Assembly (NCBI GenBank): GCA_964397605.1
Contig: CAYNJI010000001.1
Coordinates: 2,234-30,758 of the forward strand
Length of the DNA stretch: 28,525 bases
Source: an uncultured Dehalococcoidia bacterium
GTDB taxonomy: Bacteria; Chloroflexota; Dehalococcoidia; Lucifugimonadales; GCA-2712585
Direction of reading: 5' to 3'
Part shown: positions 1,212 to 17,425 of the stretch, in pieces
How the letters are laid out: each line of letters opens with the position of its first letter
Numbering within the stretch: position 1 is the stretch's first letter
Notes under the pieces: model-generated
What the model was told of the DNA's origin: nothing
The model's database searches: none
Seen by the model: the letters and a program-made list of their open reading frames with translations, nothing else
Program-made: the position numbers and the translations under genes

Positions 1212-1487
1212 CTAGGCGGCGGCGACCTCAAGGGAGTCCACCTTGGCCTGAATAACGTCGCGAAGCTGCTTTACCCGGGTCAGGTCGGGGTACTTGCCAT
1301 CTTCTTCTGAGCGGTCGAAGATCTTCTCGCCGTCCAGATAGACCTCCAAGCGGCCATTGGCCCCGGGGGTCAGAGAGATGCCGGCGTCGGCGCCGAAGTA
1401 TCGGTAGAACTCATTCGCCATCCACGTGGCGGTGGCATGGTACTGTCAAGGTACACAATAGACGATGTCGATATTAACTTTCCACAT
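1212..1487 (-). CDS. Rdx-family (SelW/SelT/SelH-like) selenoprotein, 91 aa, Sec at codon 14
   Basis: The ORF-track fragment (1212-1421) extends in frame through TGA at 1446-1448 to an ATG at 1487 with a GAGGGG RBS: MWKVNIDIVYCVP-U-QYHATATWMANEF...ISLTPGANGRLEVYLDGEKIFDR...YPDL. The I-x-YCxxU motif and the G..GRLEV..DG...PD C-terminus match the Rdx family. Confidence 0.9.
1416..1431 (-). promoter_or_regulatory. Candidate bacterial SECIS hairpin
   Basis: mRNA CGCCA-CGUGGA-UGGCG: a 5-bp stem with a G-containing loop, starting 14 nt after the in-frame UGA. Paired by hand. Confidence 0.5.
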
Positions 1488-11420: not shown

Positions 11421-13241
11421 ATGAAGATAGCCGTTTGCATCAAGCAGGTGCCCACCCTCTCCCGCATCGAGTTTGACTACGAGAAGAAGACAATCCTTCG
11501 AGACGGGGTTCCCCTGGAGATGAACGTCTTCGACCTCATCGCACTAGGGCGGGCCATTGAGTTGAAGGAGGAGTTCGGCGGGGAGGTGACGGCTATCACC
11601 ATGGGGCCGCCCCAGGCCAAAGAGGCGCTAGCCCATGCCTTGGCCGTCGGCGCAGACCACGGCGTCATCATCTCTGACCCGGTCATGGCAGGCTCCGATA
11701 CCCTGGCCACCTCACGCACCCTGGCCCTGGCGCTGAAAGACCGGGGCTTCGATCTCATCATGTGCGGCAGAAACAGCACCGACGCCGAGACCGGACAGGT
11801 CGGGCCGGAGCTGGCGGAAATTCTGGGCATCCCTCACGTCAGCCGGGCTCGGCGGCTGGAATACCAGGCCGAGTCCAACAGCGTGATAGTGGAGCGGGAG
11901 ACGGACGAAGGACATGAGATTCTGGAGATGTCCTTACCCGCCCTGGTCACAGCCACGGAGGGTTTGAGCGAGGAACGATGGGCGCGCCGCCGGCTGCTGG
12001 TTGAGGCCAGGAAGCGACCGGTTGAAGAGATAGGGGCCGGTCAGCTTTCGGAGGACGTGTCCATCTTTGGCGCGGAGGGTTCTCCCACCTGGGTAGCGGA
12101 CATCCGCTTTCTTGAACCCCAGCGATTGGGGGTGGTGATTGAAGATTCCGACCCGGAAGCAGCGGCCCAGGCCGTAATGGAGGGGCTTAGAAACCGTCCC
12201 GACGTAGTCGAAGAAGACGCGCCGTCTGAATCGGGGTGGCAGAGATACCCCGGAGGGCAGGGAAACACCCTCTGGGTGGTGGCGGAGAGGTCGGCAGATG
12301 GGCTTCGCCGGGCGACGCTAGAGAATCTGGGCAAGGCCAGAGGGCTGGCCGAGGAGCTGCATGGTGAAGTTGTCGCCGTGTTGGTGGAGGACTTCGACAC
12401 GGATGATATTGTGAAGCTGGCCCGCTACGGCGCCGACTTTATTCTGGACCTGTCTGCCCGCGACTATCGTCACCCAACTAGCCCGCTGACTGCTTCGACC
12501 CTCGATCGGGTCATAAGGGAAAGAAAACCTTACGCCGTGCTGTTTTCCTCCACTGCCAACGGTCGGGACCTGGCCTCTCGGGTTGCCGCCCGCCTCTCCC
12601 TCGGCCTCACCGGCGATTGCATTGACCTGGAGTTAGACGAGGAAGGACGGCTGGTGCAGTTGAAGCCCGCCCTGGGCGGCAACGTGGTGGCGCCCATCCT
12701 GTCGAAGGTCAAGCCCTACCTGGTCACCCTGCGTCCGGGCTTGCTCACGCCCGTCATGCCTGAGGACGACCCCGTAGTTACATTGGAATCCCCTCCTTAC
12801 TGCGTAGAAGGGCCGGACCCGCTGCGCCTGGTGGAAAGCCGGGTCGAGGAGGACGCCAGCGGGTTGGAGTTGGAGCGGGCGGAGGTTGTCATCGGTGTGG
12901 GCATGGGCATCGGCGGCCCGGAGTCGCTGCCCAAGATTCGAGAGCTGGCGGGACGTTTGGGCGCGTCGGTAGCGGCCAGTCGCAGCGTCACTGACGCCGG
13001 CTGGTTGCCGAAACAGCTGCAGGTGGGTCTCACGGGCCGGGCCATAGCGCCCAGGCTCTACATAGCCGTTGGCCTTCGGGGCGACTTCAATCACATTGTC
13101 GGAATCCAGAAAGCGGGTACGGTAGTGGGCATAAACACCAACCGGCGGCATCCAATCTTTCAGGCCGCCGACTTCGGCATCGTCGGTTCGTGGGAGGAAT
13201 ACCTGCCAGCCCTTGTTAAGGCGCTGGTCCGCGAGGACTAA
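11421..13241 (+). CDS. Fused electron transfer flavoprotein (EtfB-EtfA / FixA-FixB in one chain)
   Basis: The N-half has VCIKQVP, GSDTLATS and CGRNSTDAETGQVGPE (EtfB). The C-half has LTGDC, KPALGG, ASRSVTDAGW and QVGLTG..IAPRLYIAVG (EtfA). One uninterrupted 606-aa frame. Confidence 0.92.
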   Translation: MKIAVCIKQVPTLSRIEFDYEKKTILRDGVPLEMNVFDLIALGRAIELKEEFGGEVTAITMGPPQAKEALAHALAVGADHGVIISDPVMAGSDTLATSRTLALALKDRGFDLIMCGRNSTDAETGQVGPELAEILGIPHVSRARRLEYQAESNSVIVERETDEGHEILEMSLPALVTATEGLSEERWARRRLLVEARKRPVEEIGAGQLSEDVSIFGAEGSPTWVADIRFLEPQRLGVVIEDSDPEAAAQAVMEGLRNRPDVVEEDAPSESGWQRYPGGQGNTLWVVAERSADGLRRATLENLGKARGLAEELHGEVVAVLVEDFDTDDIVKLARYGADFILDLSARDYRHPTSPLTASTLDRVIRERKPYAVLFSSTANGRDLASRVAARLSLGLTGDCIDLELDEEGRLVQLKPALGGNVVAPILSKVKPYLVTLRPGLLTPVMPEDDPVVTLESPPYCVEGPDPLRLVESRVEEDASGLELERAEVVIGVGMGIGGPESLPKIRELAGRLGASVAASRSVTDAGWLPKQLQVGLTGRAIAPRLYIAVGLRGDFNHIVGIQKAGTVVGINTNRRHPIFQAADFGIVGSWEEYLPALVKALVRED

Positions 13242-14104
13242 CGGGCGAGGCGGCGCAGGAACATGGTGGTTAGGTCTACGAAGATCACCAGCAGCAGATA
13301 CCATATCAGCAGCAGCGCCACGTCGGTATACCGGAACAGGCTCATATCCAGCAGAAACTCCCGTCCCAGCCCTCCGGCGCTGACCAGCCCGACAACCACG
13401 GTGGTTCGGATGACCACTTCCCACCGGTACAGCAGGTAGGTAAGAAACTGGGGCAGCGCCTGGGGCAGAATGCCGTAAGCCAGCATCTGGAAGACGCTGG
13501 AGCCGGAGGTCCGCAGGGCGCGGGCGGACCGGGGGTCCAGGTCTTCCACCACCTCGGCAGAGAGCTTGCCTAGGATGCCGTAGTTGTGGATGCCGAGGGC
13601 GAGGGCGCCGGCCAGTATGCCGGGGCTGAAGGCGAAGACGACTATCATGGCGATTATTAGCTCCGGTATGCCACGGCTGAAGATGAAGAGCGCCCGTAGC
13701 AAATAGTAGAGTGCCCTTGACGGCAGCGAGGCGGAGGAAGCGAGTTCTCCCGTGGCCACGTTGCGAGCGGCGGGCAGGAAGGTCAGCAGCGCGGCAACGC
13801 CCGCTATGGCCATGGCTAATACGCTCATGGCGAGGGTGTCGTAGGCCAGCCCACCCGCTTCCTTCCACTTGTCCCACTGCAGAAAGGCCGGCGTTCCTTC
13901 GCTTCCCGAACCCGCCAACCGCCCCAGAAAAGCCCCGGCCTGCCGCCACGTTTCGGCCTGAAACATCTCCCGTAAGCCGCCGTCGGGGTCGAGAAGCAGA
14001 TAGGCCCAGGAGGCGCAGGCTAGGGCCACGAAAGCCGCCAGCGACACCCACAACGGGTTGAGCCGGAGCCTTCGGCGTGTAGCTGTATCTCTCCGCAAGC
14101 TCAC
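13238..14104 (-). CDS. ABC transporter permease, PhnE/PtxC family
   Basis: SRGIPELI, GILGKLSAEVVEDLD..ARALRTSG (EAA-like), YRWEVVIR...VGLVSAGGLG. Confidence 0.9.
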   Translation of the reverse strand: MSLRRDTATRRRLRLNPLWVSLAAFVALACASWAYLLLDPDGGLREMFQAETWRQAGAFLGRLAGSGSEGTPAFLQWDKWKEAGGLAYDTLAMSVLAMAIAGVAALLTFLPAARNVATGELASSASLPSRALYYLLRALFIFSRGIPELIIAMIVVFAFSPGILAGALALGIHNYGILGKLSAEVVEDLDPRSARALRTSGSSVFQMLAYGILPQALPQFLTYLLYRWEVVIRTTVVVGLVSAGGLGREFLLDMSLFRYTDVALLLIWYLLLVIFVDLTTMFLRRLAR

Positions 14105-14937
14105 GACGTGAGATACCTCCTAACCCAGGAACTCCAGAGGTCGACCAGCAGGACCAGCGCCACCATCGCGTAGAGCAGCGTCCAGACCTCAGGATAGTAG
14201 AGGTCCGACAGGGACAGCTGTATCTGCATACCCAGCCCGCCGACGCCAACGAATCCCATGATTGCGGCGGAGCGGATGGCGCATTCGAAGCGGTAGAAGG
14301 TGTAACTGAGCATATCCGGCAGGGCCATGGGCAGCCGTCCATAGAGAAGGATCTTGGCTTCCGATGCGCCGGAAGCCCGGAGGGCGCGGAGGGGGGCGGC
14401 TGGTACGTCGTTGAGGATATCGGCGTAGATTCTCCCTAGGATGCCGGCGTAGGGGATGGCCAAGGCCAGGATGGCTGCAGCCGGGAAGAGGCCGACGGCG
14501 GCAACGAAAAACCAGGCCCAAATCAGCTCGTGAACGGAGCGCATGGCGCCCAGGAGAAACCGGAAGCCTGCCACACCGGAGATTTTCGCGCGTGAGTTGC
14601 GGGTCAGAACGCCGGAGGCGAGAACGCCCAATGGCAGACCGAGAGCCACGGCGAGGCAGATTCCAGCTACGGCGTAGGCGACAGTCTTCCAAGCAGAACT
14701 AATTGTAAGGGTGAGGAATTCGCCGGACAGCTCCGGGCTGATGGCGGCTTGGAAGAACTGGCCGATGGACGCCAGTCCGCCGGGGTGCACCGGCGAGCTC
14801 CCCCACTGAAGCGAGGTGAGGCTCCAGAGGAAGGCGACCGCCAAGAGCAGGGTGAGGAATCCTCGCCCCCGGAAGAAGCTACCGTCCCGGTTACGGGCGG
14901 ACTGGGGCGAGGTTGTAGAGGCGGTTGAGGGCCTCAT
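14101..14937 (-). CDS. ABC transporter permease, PhnE/PtxC family
   Basis: RSVHELIWA, GILGRIYADIL, ALRASGAS, YRFECAIRSAAIMGFVGVGGLG. Confidence 0.9.
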   Translation of the reverse strand: MRPSTASTTSPQSARNRDGSFFRGRGFLTLLLAVAFLWSLTSLQWGSSPVHPGGLASIGQFFQAAISPELSGEFLTLTISSAWKTVAYAVAGICLAVALGLPLGVLASGVLTRNSRAKISGVAGFRFLLGAMRSVHELIWAWFFVAAVGLFPAAAILALAIPYAGILGRIYADILNDVPAAPLRALRASGASEAKILLYGRLPMALPDMLSYTFYRFECAIRSAAIMGFVGVGGLGMQIQLSLSDLYYPEVWTLLYAMVALVLLVDLWSSWVRRYLTS

Positions 14938-15661
14938 CCGTCAGCTGCTCCACTGGCAGGTCGAACTCCAGATTTCCCTTTCGGAGACCGATGGCTCGGG
15001 AGAAGTATTTTCGCGTCAGGTGGGTGGAATGGACGCTGGCAATGAGAGTCTTGTTGGTCTCCGTAACGATGGACACCAGCAGATGCATCAGGTCCTCGGC
15101 GCGGGCCGGGTCCAGGGAGGCCACAGGCTCGTCCGCCAGCACCACCCTCGACTGCTGGGCCAGCAGCCGAGCCATGGCGACTCGCTGCTGCTCGCCGCCG
15201 GAGAGGTGGGACGTCCTTTCGTGCAGTTTCTCTGGAATCCCTACCCGCTCCAGCGCTCGCTCGACCATCTCCCGTTCGCGCAGGGAGACCAGGGATAGGA
15301 GGGACTTCCACAGGCTCCATCGCCCTAGCCGTCCGGCCAGCACGTTGTGTACCACGGAAAGCTGGGGCACCAGGTCCAGCTGTTGGTGCATCATTCCCAC
15401 CAGTTCGGCCAGCTTGGGGCCGGCGCTCATGGTCGTGAGGGGCTGTCCGGCCAAGAGCACCTGTCCCTCGTTGGGCTGCTCCATGCTTGCGATGAGATGA
15501 AGCAGGGTGGTCTTGCCGCTGCCGCTAGGTCCCAGCACTGCCACCCGTTCACCCTCATTGATCTCCAGGGAGAGAGACGAGAGGGCGGCTTCGCCATTGT
15601 ACCGCTTGGACACCCCTTCCAGGCGGACTATGGGAAAAGGACTCTGGCCGTTGCGCGTCAT
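14891..15661 (-). CDS. ABC transporter ATP-binding protein, PhnC family
   Basis: Walker A GPSGSGKTT, HNVLAGRLG, signature LSGGEQQRV, Walker B ADEPVASLDP. Confidence 0.93.
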   Translation of the reverse strand: MTRNGQSPFPIVRLEGVSKRYNGEAALSSLSLEINEGERVAVLGPSGSGKTTLLHLIASMEQPNEGQVLLAGQPLTTMSAGPKLAELVGMMHQQLDLVPQLSVVHNVLAGRLGRWSLWKSLLSLVSLREREMVERALERVGIPEKLHERTSHLSGGEQQRVAMARLLAQQSRVVLADEPVASLDPARAEDLMHLLVSIVTETNKTLIASVHSTHLTRKYFSRAIGLRKGNLEFDLPVEQLTDEALNRLYNLAPVRP

Positions 15662-15662
15662 G

Positions 15663-16562
15663 CTACTCCAGCATCCCCAGGGACTTGGCCACGGACTCTA
15701 TGTCGGCGTAGTTTTCGTTCTTGGAAGTGATGAAAGAATCTGTTCGGAAGGCTTCGAGGAGGTCGGACTGGCTTGAATCGAGGTGCATGTTCAAAAGGGC
15801 GTCCTGAAGCCTCTGGGTGAACCCTACGCCGAAAGACTCATCCAAATCTCCCCGAGCCGACCAGTTGTAGTCGAAATAGGGCGGTGTGACGGACATCTGC
15901 CGCACCTTTGAGACATCGATCCTATTACCGGAAACGGCGTTTTCCCATACGGTCTTGTTGAGGGCGCCGGCCTGGAAGGAGCCGGACTCCACCAGCTTCC
16001 AGGTAGTGTTATGGGAACCCGAGAAATTGGGCAGGCCGTTGAAGTCTGAGTCCGGGTCGATGCCCGCTTGGACCAGATAGCGTCGCGGCATGAGGTGACC
16101 GGAGGTGGAGTTAATGCTGCCGAAGGTAAAGGTCAGGCCGGCCAAGTCCTGTAGTTCCTGGGCGGGGAGGTCGGATTGAACGATGTAGGCGGAGACGAAC
16201 TCGGTATCCCTGGGACGTTGGGCGATGGCCTTTGCGCCGGGGGATTGCTTGCGGGCCTGCACCCCCGTGAGTCCACCGAACCAGGCGAGATGGAGGTCTC
16301 CGTTAGCGAAGGCGGTGACTACGGCGGCGTAGTCGATGCTGGCCTTGTATTTTACGGACACGCCCAGCTTGTCGCTAAGATAGTGGGCCAAGCCGTCGAA
16401 GCGGCGCACTAGCAGGGAAGTCTCCTGGTCGGGAATGCCGCCGATGTATAGAGTTTCCGGGGTATCCCCGTTGCCGCCGGCGCAGGCAGATGAGAATGCC
16501 AGCGCCAATAGCAGAATTGGCGCGATGAACGTGAGCTTCCAGTTGTGGGTAGGAACTACCAT
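15663..16562 (-). CDS. PhnD-superfamily substrate-binding lipoprotein, 'putative selenate ABC transporter' clade
   Basis: Lipobox FSSAC. The motifs GIPDQ, DYAAVVTAF..GDLHLAWFGGLTGVQAR, TFGSINSTSGHLMP, FSGSH and AGALN..VW resemble, from memory, the TIGR04553 clade described near selD. The substrate is not proven. Confidence 0.85.
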   Translation of the reverse strand: MVVPTHNWKLTFIAPILLLALAFSSACAGGNGDTPETLYIGGIPDQETSLLVRRFDGLAHYLSDKLGVSVKYKASIDYAAVVTAFANGDLHLAWFGGLTGVQARKQSPGAKAIAQRPRDTEFVSAYIVQSDLPAQELQDLAGLTFTFGSINSTSGHLMPRRYLVQAGIDPDSDFNGLPNFSGSHNTTWKLVESGSFQAGALNKTVWENAVSGNRIDVSKVRQMSVTPPYFDYNWSARGDLDESFGVGFTQRLQDALLNMHLDSSQSDLLEAFRTDSFITSKNENYADIESVAKSLGMLE

Positions 16563-16813
16563 CTCTTCCCTCTCGTCTGGGGGGACCGCGATTGCCGGAG
16601 CGGTCAGGGCGCAATGCTGGAATCCGGCGCAAGCCTAAGCGTGGGACGAGGGAAGAACTGCTGAAAGGGGAGAACTAGGGAATTCGGAGCTTAGCAGGAC
16701 GCACCTCGCCCATCCAGGCGCGACCTCAGGTAAAGCCCTCTATTAAGCTGGGTATGAAGTTAAGAGTAGGCATAGGGCAAAGGAATACTATTATGGATGG
16801 GGGTTTTCGTCAA
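16563..16813 (-). promoter_or_regulatory. Promoter and structured 5' leader (candidate translational attenuator) of the ABC operon
   Basis: TTGACG (16808-16813)-17 nt-TAGTAT (16785-16790). The leader segment 16645-16657 is complementary (13 bp, 2-nt bulge) to the SD region 16563-16577. Confidence 0.65.
16675..16773 (-). CDS. Candidate leader peptide with in-frame UGA at codon 16 (15 aa if stop, 32 aa if Sec)
   Basis: ATG 16773: MPTLNFIPSLIEGFT-TGA(16726-16728)-GRAWMGEVRPAKLRIP-TAG. There is no SD and the ATG is 11 nt after the -10 box. Translation is inferred. Confidence 0.45.
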
Positions 16814-16867
16814 TGGGGGAACAGGTCAGAGTGGCGACGACCTAAACTGTCCGGACGAACGTTGGAG

Positions 16868-17233
16868 TCAGGGTGTTGCGCCCAGAAGCTCTTCCGCCCT
16901 GTCCACAAACTGTTCTACCTGCCGGAGATGGCTCCCTATGATTCTGTTGGAAAGTGCATTCTCGTAGAAATTCACGTGTAGGTGTGAGGCGAGGGCGAAC
17001 AGATTCGCAAGCTCCTCGTCGCTAGTCTCATCGGTCAAGGCTGAGACTGCACGCATGATATCCCGGTGACTGAAGTGGCGCCAGCCCCGTTCTTGGGCGA
17101 TGGCCTTGACCATCTGGGCAGCTGCGCCCCATCCTTTTTCCGAGGCTTGTGGAAGGTCGCCCTTGGCGAGCTCTTCGTACGCCTGGGCAAGAATCACCCG
17201 GCTCTGCTCTTTGTATGTTGTCGTTCTTTGCAT
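16868..17233 (-). CDS. PaREP1-family (HEPN-like) protein
   Basis: LAQAYEELAKGDLPQASEKGWGAAAQMVKAIA..RGWRH.SH and A..LHVNFYE motifs. The likely start is ATG 17233 (track 17296). Confidence 0.85.
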   Translation of the reverse strand: MQRTTTYKEQSRVILAQAYEELAKGDLPQASEKGWGAAAQMVKAIAQERGWRHFSHRDIMRAVSALTDETSDEELANLFALASHLHVNFYENALSNRIIGSHLRQVEQFVDRAEELLGATP

Positions 17234-17425
17234 GTTAAACGCCTTCCGTGCGGTGCGTGCCGACGGCAAGCTCGCATCAACGGTACACGCACACAAGTGC
17301 TGGCGTCAACAAGGCTGGATTATTTTCTTCGTTGGCTCTAGAATACCGATGAGCGCTCCCCTGACCCGCCGGCTTCCCAGGTTTGGCCCGGCCTCCACGG
17401 GGAGCCACTAACGGGAGGATGAATT

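What the first reader, a model, noticed from the sequence alone, without database searches (positions are those of the whole stretch)
16560..16813. Candidate selenocysteine-sensing translational attenuator controlling a putative selenate ABC transporter
SEEN: a good promoter (TTGACG-17-TAGTAT) lies about 210 nt upstream of the binding-protein ATG (16562). The leader opens with a uORF (ATG 16773) that has an in-frame UGA at codon 16 and a UAG at codon 33. Right after the UGA is a hairpin, GGUCGCGCCU-GGAUGGGCG-AGGUGCGUCC (16725-16697). Further down, UUCUUCCCUCGUC (16657-16645) can pair over 13 bp with a 2-nt bulge to GACGAGAGGGAAGAG (16577-16563), which covers the SD next to the start codon. That anti-SD can instead pair with GGGCGAGG from the post-UGA hairpin (16711-16704 with 16651-16644, 8 bp), backed by a nested CUGCU/AGCAG helix (16697-16693 with 16662-16658). 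The two folds are mutually exclusive. KNOWN: this binding-protein clade (TIGR04553-like) was named from selD neighbourhoods; leader-peptide attenuation by cognate-codon stalling is established (trp, his); E. coli selAB is regulated by a SECIS-like 5' element. The window also encodes a selenoprotein, so the host likely has Sec machinery. INFERENCE: in low Se the ribosome stalls or stops at the UGA, the anti-anti-SD captures the anti-SD and the transporter is translated. In high Se, read-through or SelB binding to the hairpin removes the anti-anti-SD and the SD is occluded. I know of no described Sec-codon attenuator for a selenium transporter. CAVEATS: the uORF has no SD (the acVLRF1 gene here shows the same near-leaderless layout), and the hairpin loop is only about 10 nt from the UGA, closer than canonical SECIS spacing.
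Basis: partly seen in the sequence, partly recalled or inferred. Interest (0 to 1): 0.9.

Follow-up and report, generated by a model that had tools for sequence, protein, structure and literature searches.

The report
Leader-peptide switch before selenium transporter
In front of a putative selenium-uptake transporter operon sits a tiny, promoter-proximal reading frame that always ends in Gly-Phe-Thr followed by a UGA codon and a hairpin; it is conserved across many Dehalococcoidia and most likely acts as a ribosome-operated on/off switch, perhaps the first one that reads selenocysteine supply.

Summary
About 27 Dehalococcoidia/Chloroflexota species carry the same layout in front of the TIGR04553 binding-protein gene:
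- a sigma-70 promoter;
- a leaderless or near-leaderless uORF of 10-23 codons ending in Gly-Phe-Thr (rarely GFA, GFV, GYA);
- a UGA stop in every case, although TGA is only 31% of stops in this genome;
- a hairpin directly after the UGA;
- a C-rich anti-SD tract that can pair with either the hairpin's 3' half or the transporter's SD.

A 45-nt core stays 87-98% identical where four-fold sites of the neighbouring gene have fallen to 35-44%. selA, selB, selC and selD are all present.

Selenocysteine decoding is not shown. In this lineage the hairpin lies too close to the UGA for canonical SECIS geometry. There is no significant covariation within the alignable group. Equilibrium folding does not reproduce the switch.

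Best reading: an ermC-type translational attenuator set by ribosome dwell time at the UGA, probably through RF2 versus Sec-tRNASec competition.

Unchecked notes from this scan describe similar leaders on other DNA. I found no published description.

The parts
16785..16813 (-). Sigma-70-type promoter: TTGACG, 17-nt spacer, TAGTAT
   Evidence: Found by the consensus scan. The -35 TTGAC is invariant in 14 aligned species. A promoter in this position occurs in 26 of 27 leaders.
16726..16773 (-). Leader uORF: AUG, 14 further sense codons, then UGA. Near-leaderless, with the AUG 11 nt after the -10 hexamer. Peptide MPTLNFIPSLIEGFT.
   Evidence: Seen. The frame and its exact 16-codon length are kept in the genus. 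In other lineages the start codon lies 6-7 nt after the -10, which makes the uORF truly leaderless. Metatranscriptome contig X17 rec. 13 begins at 16775.
16729..16737 (-). Conserved Gly-Phe-Thr codons (GGC TTT ACC) immediately before the stop
   Evidence: They vary only at third positions: GGC/GGT/GGA, TTT/TTC, ACC/ACT. Variant tails GFA, GFV, GYA and SFT occur in distant lineages.
16726..16728 (-). UGA that ends the uORF; candidate sensed codon
   Evidence: It is UGA in every leader found, including 15 of 15 in a scan that did not fix the stop codon. TGA makes up only 31% of the stops of long ORFs in this genome.
16696..16726 (-). Long post-UGA hairpin (segments 1 and 2), starting at the A of the UGA; loop UGGAUGGGCGA
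   Evidence: Seen. 92% of cells are paired in 14 species against 30-56% when the register is slid, but there is no covariation because 7 of 11 pairs never vary. Other lineages keep a hairpin here with a different sequence.
16707..16720 (-). Alternative small SECIS-like hairpin CGCCU-GGAU-GGGCG, beginning 5 nt after the UGA
   Evidence: Its fifth pair is U.G in most species, U-A in G006 and C-G in G016 (alignment). A related CGCCU-GGUCAG-AGGCG occurs in a second lineage. Its loop resembles the Rdx-like SECIS at 1416-1431 and shares CCUGG with the selD SECIS.
16693..16712 (-). Segment 2: SD-like decoy (anti-anti-SD) GGGCGAGGUG...CUGC. The 18 nt GGGCGAGGUGCGUCCUGC (16711-16694) are invariant in 14 species.
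   Evidence: It is the best upstream partner of the anti-SD tract: -20.0 kcal/mol, z = -3.4, and z between -1.1 and -5 in 13 of the 14 class A species. Invariant columns are listed.
16675..16677 (-). Next in-frame stop (UAG, codon 33), where a ribosome that read through the UGA would terminate
   Evidence: Seen. The position is not conserved across lineages: it lies +2 to +220 codons after the UGA.
16639..16698 (-). C-rich, G-poor tract (26 C, 8 G in 60 nt); possible Rho loading site
   Evidence: C minus G is 18 here and 14-21 in most leaders, against a genome background mean of 8.2 and a 95th percentile of 19. Rho is present in 5 of 5 complete genomes of the genus.
16644..16661 (-). Segment 3: anti-SD tract GCAGUUCUUCCCUCGUCC
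   Evidence: Pairs with the SD window at -18.6 kcal/mol and alternatively with segment 2. In alignment A2 89% of cells are paired against 45-65% when slid.
16560..16577 (-). Segment 4: SD (GACGAGAGGGAAGAG) and ATG of the binding-protein gene
   Evidence: Seen. The SD is predicted to be mostly paired in all species.
13238..16562 (-). Regulated operon: TIGR04553 binding protein (15663-16562), phnC-like ATPase (14891-15661) and two phnE-like permeases (14101-14937, 13238-14104)
   Evidence: NCBIfam and Pfam scans.

Best explanation
This is a ribosome-operated leader-peptide attenuator of the ermC/cat type that controls the TIGR04553 ABC-transporter operon.

Proposed sequence of events:
1. Transcription starts a few bases before a 16-codon uORF, which is translated without a Shine-Dalgarno sequence.
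2. The uORF ends in Gly-Phe-Thr-UGA.
3. The RNA after the UGA has four segments. Segment 1 is the 5' arm of the post-UGA hairpin. Segment 2 is an SD-like decoy. Segment 3 is a pyrimidine-rich anti-SD. Segment 4 is the true SD of the binding-protein gene.
4. With no ribosome on segment 1, the pairings 1:2 and 3:4 form and the SD is hidden (OFF). Untranslated mRNA may then also be terminated by Rho on the C-rich tract.
5. A ribosome that dwells on the UGA covers segment 1. Segment 2 then captures segment 3 and the SD is free (ON).

Favoured input (inferred): dwell time at the UGA is set by competition between a termination made slow by the GFT nascent chain (RF2) and decoding of the UGA by Sec-tRNASec/SelB, helped by the adjacent SECIS-like hairpin.
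- When selenium is scarce the ribosome waits at the UGA and the importer is made.
- When Sec-tRNASec is plentiful the UGA is read through, the ribosome runs over segment 2 and leaves at the next stop, and the SD is hidden again.

Shown: the parts, their conservation, UGA exclusivity, the alternative complementarities, and the presence of Sec machinery and of Rho.
Inferred: translation of the uORF, stalling, Sec decoding, and the sign of the response.
For: 1. The architecture is conserved in about 27 species across several families: promoter, leaderless uORF, G-F-T, UGA, hairpin.
2. Changes in the GFT codons are confined to third positions, which implies translation.
3. The stop is UGA in every case, including 15 of 15 in a motif-blind scan, while TGA is 31% of stops in this genome. 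A plain arrest or a plain stop would tolerate UAG or UAA.
4. The 45-nt core is 87-98% identical, while four-fold sites of the neighbouring gene are saturated at 35-44% identity.
5. In most of the lineages examined (about 20 of 27 leaders at z of -1.9 or below) the best upstream partner of the anti-SD is the 3' half of the post-UGA hairpin or lies within the post-UGA hairpin region, with z between -2 and -5. 2:3 and 3:4 have similar strength (-20.0 and -18.6 kcal/mol).
6. selA, selB, selC and selD are present, and selD and an Rdx-like gene are themselves selenoproteins.
7. The hairpin loops carry CCUGG(A/U), as do the selD SECIS (CCUG-GUN-CAGG) and the Rdx-like SECIS. In two other lineages a hairpin loop lies 18-20 nt after the UGA, which is canonical SECIS spacing.
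8. The leader is single-copy per genome and found only at this transporter.
9. Precedent: the PepNL nascent chain blocks RF2 at a UGA, and read-through by an aminoacyl-tRNA relieves the arrest (PMC11890864).
10. In four metatranscriptomes, contigs over the leader have 2-6 times the depth of the gene body, or the body is absent. One contig starts 2 nt before the AUG.
Against: 1. In the window's lineage the hairpin loop starts 9-10 nt after the UGA and the small hairpin starts 5 nt after it. Genuine SECIS stems in this genome start 14 and 19 nt after their UGA, so canonical SelB-mediated decoding is doubtful here.
2. There is no significant covariation in either helix within the alignable set.
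3. The leader's MFE is ordinary (z = +0.82), and local hairpin z-scores are mostly weak.
4. Constrained equilibrium folding with a ribosome on the UGA, or on the next stop, does not raise SD accessibility: mean 0.28, 0.28 and 0.30.
5. The read-through frame is not conserved. The next stop lies only +2 to +4 codons away in three lineages and +220 codons away in one.
6. selB is present in 53 of 61 relatives whether or not they have the leader, so there is no discriminating co-occurrence.
7. The substrate of TIGR04553 is only a hypothetical assignment.
8. No ribosome-profiling, TSS or selenium-response data exist. The metatranscriptome evidence comes from unstranded contigs.
Confidence: 0.5

Rival explanations
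1. A termination-arrest leader peptide that does not involve selenocysteine. The GFT nascent chain, alone or with a small molecule bound in the exit tunnel, slows RF2-catalysed release at the UGA, as TnaC does with tryptophan. The stalled ribosome remodels the same 1:2 / 2:3 / 3:4 pairings or blocks Rho. The signal would be something other than Sec-tRNASec, for example the transporter's substrate, RF2 activity or general translation status. The post-UGA hairpin would be only the attenuator's first stem.
For: - The C-terminal G-F-T is conserved at the amino-acid level and is the most widely conserved feature.
- The stop is UGA, as in TnaC and PepNL (PMC8450073; PMC11890864).
- The hairpin is too close to the UGA for canonical SECIS geometry in the window's lineage.
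- The C-rich spacer of 150-230 nt, together with Rho, resembles the tna operon layout.
Against: - A pure arrest works with any stop codon; PepNL arrests more strongly with UAG. Yet UGA is never replaced, in a genome where UAG is the commonest stop.
- Only 3 residues are conserved across lineages, whereas ligand-sensing arrest peptides use residues spread along the exit tunnel.
- An oxyanion substrate is an unlikely ligand for the tunnel.
- The link with a family tied to selenium genes and the SECIS-like loops would be coincidental.
Confidence: 0.25
2. A SelB operator without decoding, like the E. coli selAB leader. SelB, as the quaternary complex with GTP and Sec-tRNASec, binds the SECIS-like hairpin and locks the 1:2 pairing, or blocks the ribosome, so that the SD stays hidden when selenium is sufficient. 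The uORF only delivers ribosomes that melt the hairpin when SelB is absent.
For: - E. coli SelB represses selAB through a SECIS-like 5' element (cited in bioRxiv 10.64898/2026.03.03.709296).
- The small hairpin CGCCU-GGAU-GGGCG resembles genuine SECIS loops of the same genome.
- A GCCUGGA(Y) motif recurs at variable distances (7-18 nt) from the UGA in several lineages, as expected for a binding site that is not tied to decoding geometry.
Against: - It does not explain why the uORF must end in UGA or why GFT is conserved.
- Several lineages lack the CCUGG motif.
- The SECIS resemblance carries little information.
- No binding data exist.
Confidence: 0.1
3. The conserved core is a ligand-binding riboswitch, or the binding site of another protein (on RNA, or on DNA as an operator), and the short ORF is incidental.
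For: - An 18-nt stretch is invariant across 14 species, which is more than a simple stem needs.
- Other Dehalococcoidia regulate the same transporter through a divergent LysR-type regulator instead, so regulation by a protein does occur at this locus.
Against: - No Rfam family matches, even at E up to 10.
- The post-UGA sequence is not conserved between lineages, whereas the uORF, its GFT-UGA end and its leaderless start are.
- Third-position variation indicates translation.
- The invariant G.U pair and the U.G / U-A / C-G variation fit RNA pairing, not a DNA palindrome.
- The invariance is explained by the chain of constraints rRNA, SD, anti-SD, decoy SD.
Confidence: 0.08

Closest known systems
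ermC / cat / cmlA-type translational attenuation (own knowledge)
   Same: A short leader ORF is followed by four RNA segments. A ribosome stalled in the leader covers segment 1, segment 2 pairs with segment 3, and the SD in segment 4 is freed.
   Different: In those systems the stall is caused by an antibiotic acting with the nascent chain at a sense codon. Here the candidate stall site is the UGA stop, the leader is leaderless, and the regulated genes encode a nutrient importer.
PepNL arrest peptide of E. coli (PMC11890864)
   Same: A short uORF (14 codons) whose nascent chain blocks RF2 at a UGA stop. Read-through of that UGA by an aminoacyl-tRNA relieves the arrest, so UGA identity matters functionally.
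   Different: In PepNL the read-through is by near-cognate Trp-tRNATrp with no recoding hairpin. There is no sequence similarity to PepNL. Arrest has not been demonstrated here.
TnaC / tnaCAB (PMC8450073, PMC8429421)
   Same: A leader peptide ending at UGA, with inhibition of RF2. A spacer of about 200 nt with a Rho-dependent component precedes the structural genes.
   Different: TnaC senses free tryptophan through conserved residues spread along the tunnel (W12, D16, P24). Here only the last three residues are conserved, and the operon is not catabolic.
Leader-peptide attenuators of amino-acid operons (trpL, hisL, pheL; own knowledge)
   Same: Supply of a charged tRNA is read by a ribosome at cognate codons in a leader ORF, and alternative hairpins convert ribosome position into gene expression.
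   Different: Those systems use tandem sense codons and an intrinsic terminator. Here there is one UGA (UGA-GGC-UGA in one lineage), no U-tailed terminator, and SD sequestration. The tRNA would need SelB and a SECIS.
SECIS-like element in the E. coli selAB 5' UTR (Thanbichler and Boeck; cited in bioRxiv 10.64898/2026.03.03.709296)
   Same: A SECIS-type hairpin in a leader is used for selenium-dependent translational control through SelB.
   Different: In selAB there is no uORF and no UGA, the hairpin sits 3 nt from the SD, and the regulated genes are the Sec machinery rather than a transporter.
Bacterial SECIS elements of selenoprotein genes
   Same: An in-frame UGA followed by a G+C-rich hairpin with G at the start of the loop. 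The loop motif CCUGG(A/U) is shared with the selD and Rdx-like SECIS of this genome.
   Different: The loop starts 9-10 nt after the UGA, against about 20-27 nt in this genome's genuine elements. The frame after the UGA is not conserved, so no selenoprotein is made.

Membership tests
Bacterial SECIS element (criteria of bSECISearch, recalled from own knowledge) | In-frame UGA inside a translated ORF | tested here: met
   UGA at codon 16 of a uORF that is conserved in frame and length. Translation is inferred from the leaderless promoter spacing and third-position variation.
Bacterial SECIS element (criteria of bSECISearch, recalled from own knowledge) | Apical loop 16-37 nt downstream of the UGA | tested here: not met
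   In the window the loop starts 9-10 nt after the UGA. Genuine elements of this genome have the loop at about +20 (Rdx-like) and +27 (selD). In other lineages (the L079/L080/L082 group and the L120/L127 group) a loop lies at +18 to +20, which meets the criterion.
Bacterial SECIS element (criteria of bSECISearch, recalled from own knowledge) | Stem of at least 4 bp with G in the first two loop positions | tested here: met
   Small hairpin CGCCU-GGAU-GGGCG. Loop variants among relatives are GGAC, UGAC, GGACC and GGACU.
Bacterial SECIS element (criteria of bSECISearch, recalled from own knowledge) | Host has selA, selB, selC and selD | tested here: met
Bacterial SECIS element (criteria of bSECISearch, recalled from own knowledge) | SelB binding and Sec insertion at the UGA | not testable with these tools
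   Needs biochemistry or mass spectrometry.
ermC-type translational attenuator | Short translated leader ORF directly downstream of the promoter | tested here: met
   Promoter plus a start codon 6-12 nt after the -10 in 24 of 27 leaders (0, 14 and 18 nt in three others; none found in one). A metatranscriptome contig begins 2 nt before the AUG. Translation itself has not been measured.
ermC-type translational attenuator | Four segments with mutually exclusive 1:2, 2:3 and 3:4 pairings, with the SD in segment 4 | tested here: met
   RNAduplex energies and shuffle z-scores. Pairing is kept in 89-92% of cells across 14 species against 30-65% when slid.
ermC-type translational attenuator | Covariation supporting the helices | tested here: inconclusive
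   No pair in the long hairpin, and only one pair in the 2:3 helices, changes on both sides in alignment A2. Shuffles reach the observed scores. Across lineages the hairpin is kept with different sequences, but these cannot be aligned.
ermC-type translational attenuator | A ribosome stall in the leader opens the SD | tested here: inconclusive
   Equilibrium folding with the footprint forced unpaired leaves SD accessibility unchanged.
Stop-codon arrest peptides (TnaC, PepNL, SpeFL) | Conserved residues at the C-terminal end of a short uORF next to the stop | tested here: met
   G-F-T (also GFA, GFV, GYA, SFT) in all leaders.
Stop-codon arrest peptides (TnaC, PepNL, SpeFL) | Demonstrated inhibition of release-factor action | not testable with these tools
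   Needs toeprinting or peptidyl-tRNA assays.
Any Rfam family (riboswitches, T-box, leaders) | Match to a curated covariance model | tested here: not met
   Nothing at gathering score. Only chance-level hits appear at E up to 10.
TIGR04553 putative selenate ABC transporter binding protein | Score above the curated cut-off | tested here: met
   312.3 bits against a cut-off of 250. The model is a 'hypoth_equivalog', so the substrate has not been verified.

The most novel reading that the evidence does not exclude
This is a natural selenocysteine-sensing attenuator. A leaderless leader peptide has a UGA that is decoded by Sec-tRNASec/SelB in competition with a deliberately slowed RF2 termination (the GFT tail). 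Ribosome dwell time at a single recoded stop codon would report cellular selenium status and set translation, and possibly Rho-dependent termination, of a selenium importer.
Probability: 0.45. Interest if true: 0.9.

Novelty: new variant of a known kind. Interest (0 to 1): 0.8.

Why it matters
- No selenium-responsive cis-regulatory RNA for uptake genes has been described in bacteria, and how bacteria sense selenium status is largely unknown.
- A leader peptide that uses the Sec codon itself as the hungry codon would extend classical attenuation to the 21st amino acid. It would also link it to the recently found principle, shown for PepNL, that read-through of a UGA can relieve a termination arrest.
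- It would give independent functional support for the so far hypothetical assignment of the TIGR04553 transporter family to selenium.
- It would provide a compact genetic part of about 220 nt that reports Sec-tRNASec availability.
- Even if Sec is not the signal, the strictly conserved Gly-Phe-Thr-UGA tail defines a new candidate termination-arrest motif. It occurs on a leaderless regulatory ORF in a phylum where almost no gene regulation has been studied.

Tried and rejected
1. Rfam at gathering score and at E up to 10: no family in the leader.
2. Whole-leader MFE against shuffles: not special.
3. Exact-pattern scans for the hairpin core in genome contigs: 13 true hits, all Dehalococcoidia upstream of the transporter. 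The other 18, in Streptomyces, Polyangiaceae and others, are chance matches inside GC-rich genes. The metagenome scan added only 3 close relatives.
4. Search for further GFT-UGA leaders elsewhere:
   - in 5 complete genomes of the genus, in 61 relatives, and (for a tighter pattern) in 401 genomes of the class;
   - counts equal the reversed-pattern control once the known leaders are set aside;
   - the extra hits that I inspected (7 in the five complete genomes, 22 in 20 fetched regions from relatives, and all 8 class-level hits) lack a promoter and start codon;
   - so there is no regulon in this group.
6. selB co-occurrence: selB is nearly universal in the order (53 of 61) and present in 9 of 10 further leader-bearing genomes. 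This is compatible with the Sec reading but does not discriminate.
7. Ribosome-footprint-constrained partition-function folding: no change in SD accessibility.
8. Covariation counts on 14 aligned leaders: no signal beyond conservation.
9. De novo selenoprotein scan of the genome to enlarge the SECIS reference set: too noisy, abandoned.
10. Post-UGA region as coding sequence: rejected, because a 1-nt loop insertion in three species shifts the frame.
11. T-box-like direct tRNA binding: considered and rejected, because there is no Rfam T-box hit and the reading frame is conserved.
Full report
**The observation**

All coordinates are on the minus strand. The window holds:
- a -35 TTGACG (16813-16808), a 17-nt spacer and a -10 TAGTAT (16790-16785);
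- an ATG at 16773 that opens a 15-residue frame (MPTLNFIPSLIEGFT) closed by UGA at 16728-16726, with the next in-frame stop (UAG) 17 codons further on at 16677-16675;
- a hairpin that starts at the A of the UGA and ends at 16696: 10-11 pairs with one U.U mismatch and one G.U pair;
- a pyrimidine tract at 16661-16644 that is complementary to the SD and start of the binding-protein gene (16577-16560);
- the same tract is also complementary to 16712-16693, the 3' half of the hairpin. The energies are -18.6 and -20.0 kcal/mol, and the second has z = -3.4 against shuffles.

The downstream gene scores 312 bits on TIGR04553 (cut-off 250). It heads a phnC/phnE/phnE-like ABC operon.

**Is it more than chance?**

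Thermodynamics alone says nothing. The leader folds no better than shuffles (z = +0.82). The decisive evidence is comparative.

Evidence from close relatives:
- Orthologous loci from 11 further species of the genus and two sister genera keep several features: the -35, the ATG, an identical uORF length, the last four codons and the UGA.
- An 18-nt stretch of the hairpin's 3' half is invariant in them.
- Changes in the last three sense codons fall only on third positions (GGC/GGT, TTT/TTC, ACC/ACT).
- The 45-nt core is 39-44 of 45 identical to the window in all 13. Four-fold degenerate sites of the adjacent binding-protein gene fall to 35-44% identity in the most distant ones.

Evidence from distant relatives:
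- More distant orthologues have unalignable leader sequences but the same plan. This holds for other families of the order and for Chloroflexota loci found with a protein profile.
- The plan is a short ORF ending in x-Gly-Phe-Thr-UGA followed by a hairpin.
- In 26 of 27 leaders a TTGACN-17/18-TANNNT promoter precedes the uORF. The start codon lies 6-7 nt after the -10 (a true leaderless transcript) in most of the distant lineages, and 11-12 nt after it in most of the window's lineage.

A scan that fixed neither the peptide motif nor the stop codon gave the cleanest result:
- It looked for a promoter, then ATG or GTG within 4-13 nt, then an ORF of 6-32 codons, upstream of the 80 profile-derived loci.
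- It returned 15 uORFs, all in Chloroflexota and all ending in TGA.
- Twelve end in GFT. The others end in GFV, GYA and, for a 6-codon case that may be chance, WAG.
- None was found before the Bacillaceae, cyanobacterial or actinobacterial orthologues.

In this genome TGA closes only 31% of long ORFs, and TAG 48%. UGA in roughly nine independent sequence classes is therefore not a matter of composition.

**Surroundings and specificity**

- The leader occurs once per genome, only at this transporter.
- Genome-wide pattern searches covered five complete genomes of the genus, 61 relatives and (with a tighter pattern) 401 genomes of the class. Beyond the known leaders they gave only control-level numbers of hits. 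The extra hits I inspected (about half of those in the 61 relatives, and all of those in the other two searches) lack a promoter and start codon.
- Many of the Dehalococcoidia transporter loci examined without the leader carry a divergent ~315-345-aa ORF upstream instead; three that I scanned are LysR-type regulators. Two alternative control solutions therefore exist for the same operon.
- The genome has selB, selD (itself with an in-frame UGA), selA and tRNA-Sec.
- selB is nearly universal in the order (53 of 61 over cut-off) and is present in 9 of 10 further leader-bearing genomes. This is compatible with Sec involvement but does not discriminate.
- Rho was not found in the 70%-complete assembly but is present in five of five complete genomes of the genus.

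**Transcript evidence**

The organism occurs in sponge metagenomes. Four metatranscriptomes hold the region as assembled contigs.
- One contig (X17, record 13) matches 16570-16775 without a difference. It starts 2 nt before the uORF AUG, and the promoter region is not covered in that run.
- In all four runs the leader has more depth than the gene body: 5.9 against none, 20.8 against 3.3-3.7, 7.4 against 3.7-3.9, and 10.9 against 3.9-4.5. That is what an attenuated operon would show.
- These are unstranded contigs, one of them from a related strain, so this is suggestive only.

**Anatomy of the switch**

After the UGA the RNA has four segments.
- Segment 1: the C-rich 5' arm of the hairpin.
- Segment 2: a G-rich stretch containing GAGGUG, an SD look-alike.
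- Segment 3: the pyrimidine-rich anti-SD.
- Segment 4: the true SD.

In 13 of the 14 species of the window's lineage the best upstream partner of the anti-SD is segment 2 (z between -1.1 and -5). In several other lineages it lies within the post-UGA hairpin region. In-register pairing holds in 92% (1:2) and 89% (2:3) of cells across 14 species, against 30-65% when the register is slid.

The invariance of segment 2 is explained by a chain of constraints. The rRNA fixes the SD, the SD fixes the anti-SD, and the anti-SD fixes the decoy. This is the layout of ermC/cat-type translational attenuators: a ribosome held on segment 1 lets 2:3 form and frees the SD.

Caveats:
- Neither helix shows covariation beyond what shuffles give, because the sequences hardly vary.
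- Partition-function folding with a ribosome footprint on the UGA does not raise SD accessibility. If the switch exists it must be kinetic.
- The spacer of 150-230 nt is C-rich and G-poor. C minus G is 14-21 per 60 nt in most leaders, against a genome mean of 8.2. Rho-dependent termination of the untranslated message may therefore add to the output.

**What is sensed?**

Three facts must be explained together: the strict UGA, the conserved Gly-Phe-Thr tail, and a structured element right after the UGA in a selenium-linked operon.

The conserved tail, read at the amino-acid level, resembles peptides that hinder release-factor action at the peptidyl-transferase centre. TnaC and PepNL both act at a UGA. 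A pure arrest would not need UGA, however, since PepNL arrests better with UAG. PepNL keeps its UGA because read-through by an aminoacyl-tRNA relieves the arrest. Applied here, the natural read-through agent is Sec-tRNASec delivered by SelB.

Points in favour of SelB involvement:
- The post-UGA region can form a small hairpin (CGCCU-GGAU-GGGCG, 16720-16707). Its fifth pair varies as U.G, U-A or C-G.
- Its loop resembles the SECIS of the Rdx-like selenoprotein in this window.
- It shares CCUGG with the selD SECIS, which is conserved in 21 relatives.
- A second lineage has CGCCU-GGUCAG-AGGCG, with the GGUC loop of the E. coli element (own knowledge).
- Two lineages place a hairpin loop 18-20 nt after the UGA, which is canonical spacing.

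Points against canonical decoding in the window's lineage:
- The small hairpin starts 5 nt after the UGA and the loop 9-10 nt after it.
- This genome's genuine SECIS stems start 14 and 19 nt after their UGA.
- The read-through frame is not conserved. The next stop lies +2 to +220 codons away.

I therefore regard Sec decoding as the favoured but unproven input (about 0.45-0.5). A Sec-independent RF2 or arrest sensor comes second (about 0.25). A SelB operator without decoding, as in E. coli selAB, comes third.

The sign of the response (ON at low Se) follows from the arrest-plus-relief logic and from homeostasis. It does not follow from any data.

**Comparison with what is known, and novelty**

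- Full-text searches found no description of a Sec-codon attenuator, a selenium-responsive leader, or TIGR04553 regulation.
- The output domain works like ermC-type attenuation.
- The proposed input combines trp-type sensing of a charged tRNA with PepNL-type termination arrest relieved by read-through.
- It fails the spacing criterion for membership of canonical SECIS elements in this lineage, and it matches no Rfam family.
- I class it as a new variant of a known kind.
- Unchecked notes from this scan report similar UGA-containing leaders before selenium-related operons in other genomes. I did not test those loci. In the order examined here the leader is confined to the TIGR04553 operon, and my YedE search was uninformative because its controls failed.

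**Verdict**

- That it is a leader-peptide attenuator I hold at about 0.85.
- That selenocysteine supply is what it reads I hold at about 0.45-0.5.

Noticed in passing
window 1212-1487 (-): A 91-residue Rdx/SelW-like ORF with CVP-UGA-Q (CxxU). It reads through as a selenoprotein. A hairpin CGCCA-CGUGGA-UGGCG starts 14 nt after the UGA, and its loop resembles the small hairpin of the transporter leader.
   Followed up: partly
L102:448-1398(-), L143:416-1366(-), L126:465-1424(-), and about ten further loci: Dehalococcoidia TIGR04553 loci that lack the GFT-UGA leader have a divergently transcribed LysR-type regulator instead. The same operon is under two alternative kinds of control in different lineages.
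   Followed up: partly
L022 (G032) and L083: leader upstream of the binding-protein gene: In this lineage the leader ends GFT-UGA-GGC-UGA, two UGA codons one codon apart. The GFT codons pair with a GGUGAAGC stretch downstream, so the stop sits inside a long hairpin.
   Followed up: no
L194:757-830 (G041, about 340 nt upstream of selB): A frame ending ...LEGFT-UGA followed by strong hairpins lies just upstream of selB in another family. No promoter or ATG start was found and it overlaps longer open frames. This may be chance or a degenerate relative of the leader.
   Followed up: partly
whole genome G000: Among ORFs of 250 aa or more, TAG is the commonest stop (48%), followed by TGA (31%) and TAA (21%). 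This is unusual for a 59.5% G+C genome.
   Followed up: no
window 16868-17296 (-): The gene directly upstream of the leader belongs to the archaeal PaREP1/PaREP8 family (Pfam PF05942, E = 7e-22). It is syntenic in the four closest relatives.
   Followed up: no
window 11421-13241 (+): A single 606-aa ORF fuses the electron-transfer flavoprotein beta and alpha subunits (EtfB-EtfA). It converges on the end of the transporter operon.
   Followed up: no
window 15600-17400, runs X15-X18: In four sponge metatranscriptomes the leader region has 2-6 times the contig depth of the transporter gene body, and in one run only the leader is present. This fits premature termination or a stable leader RNA.
   Followed up: partly
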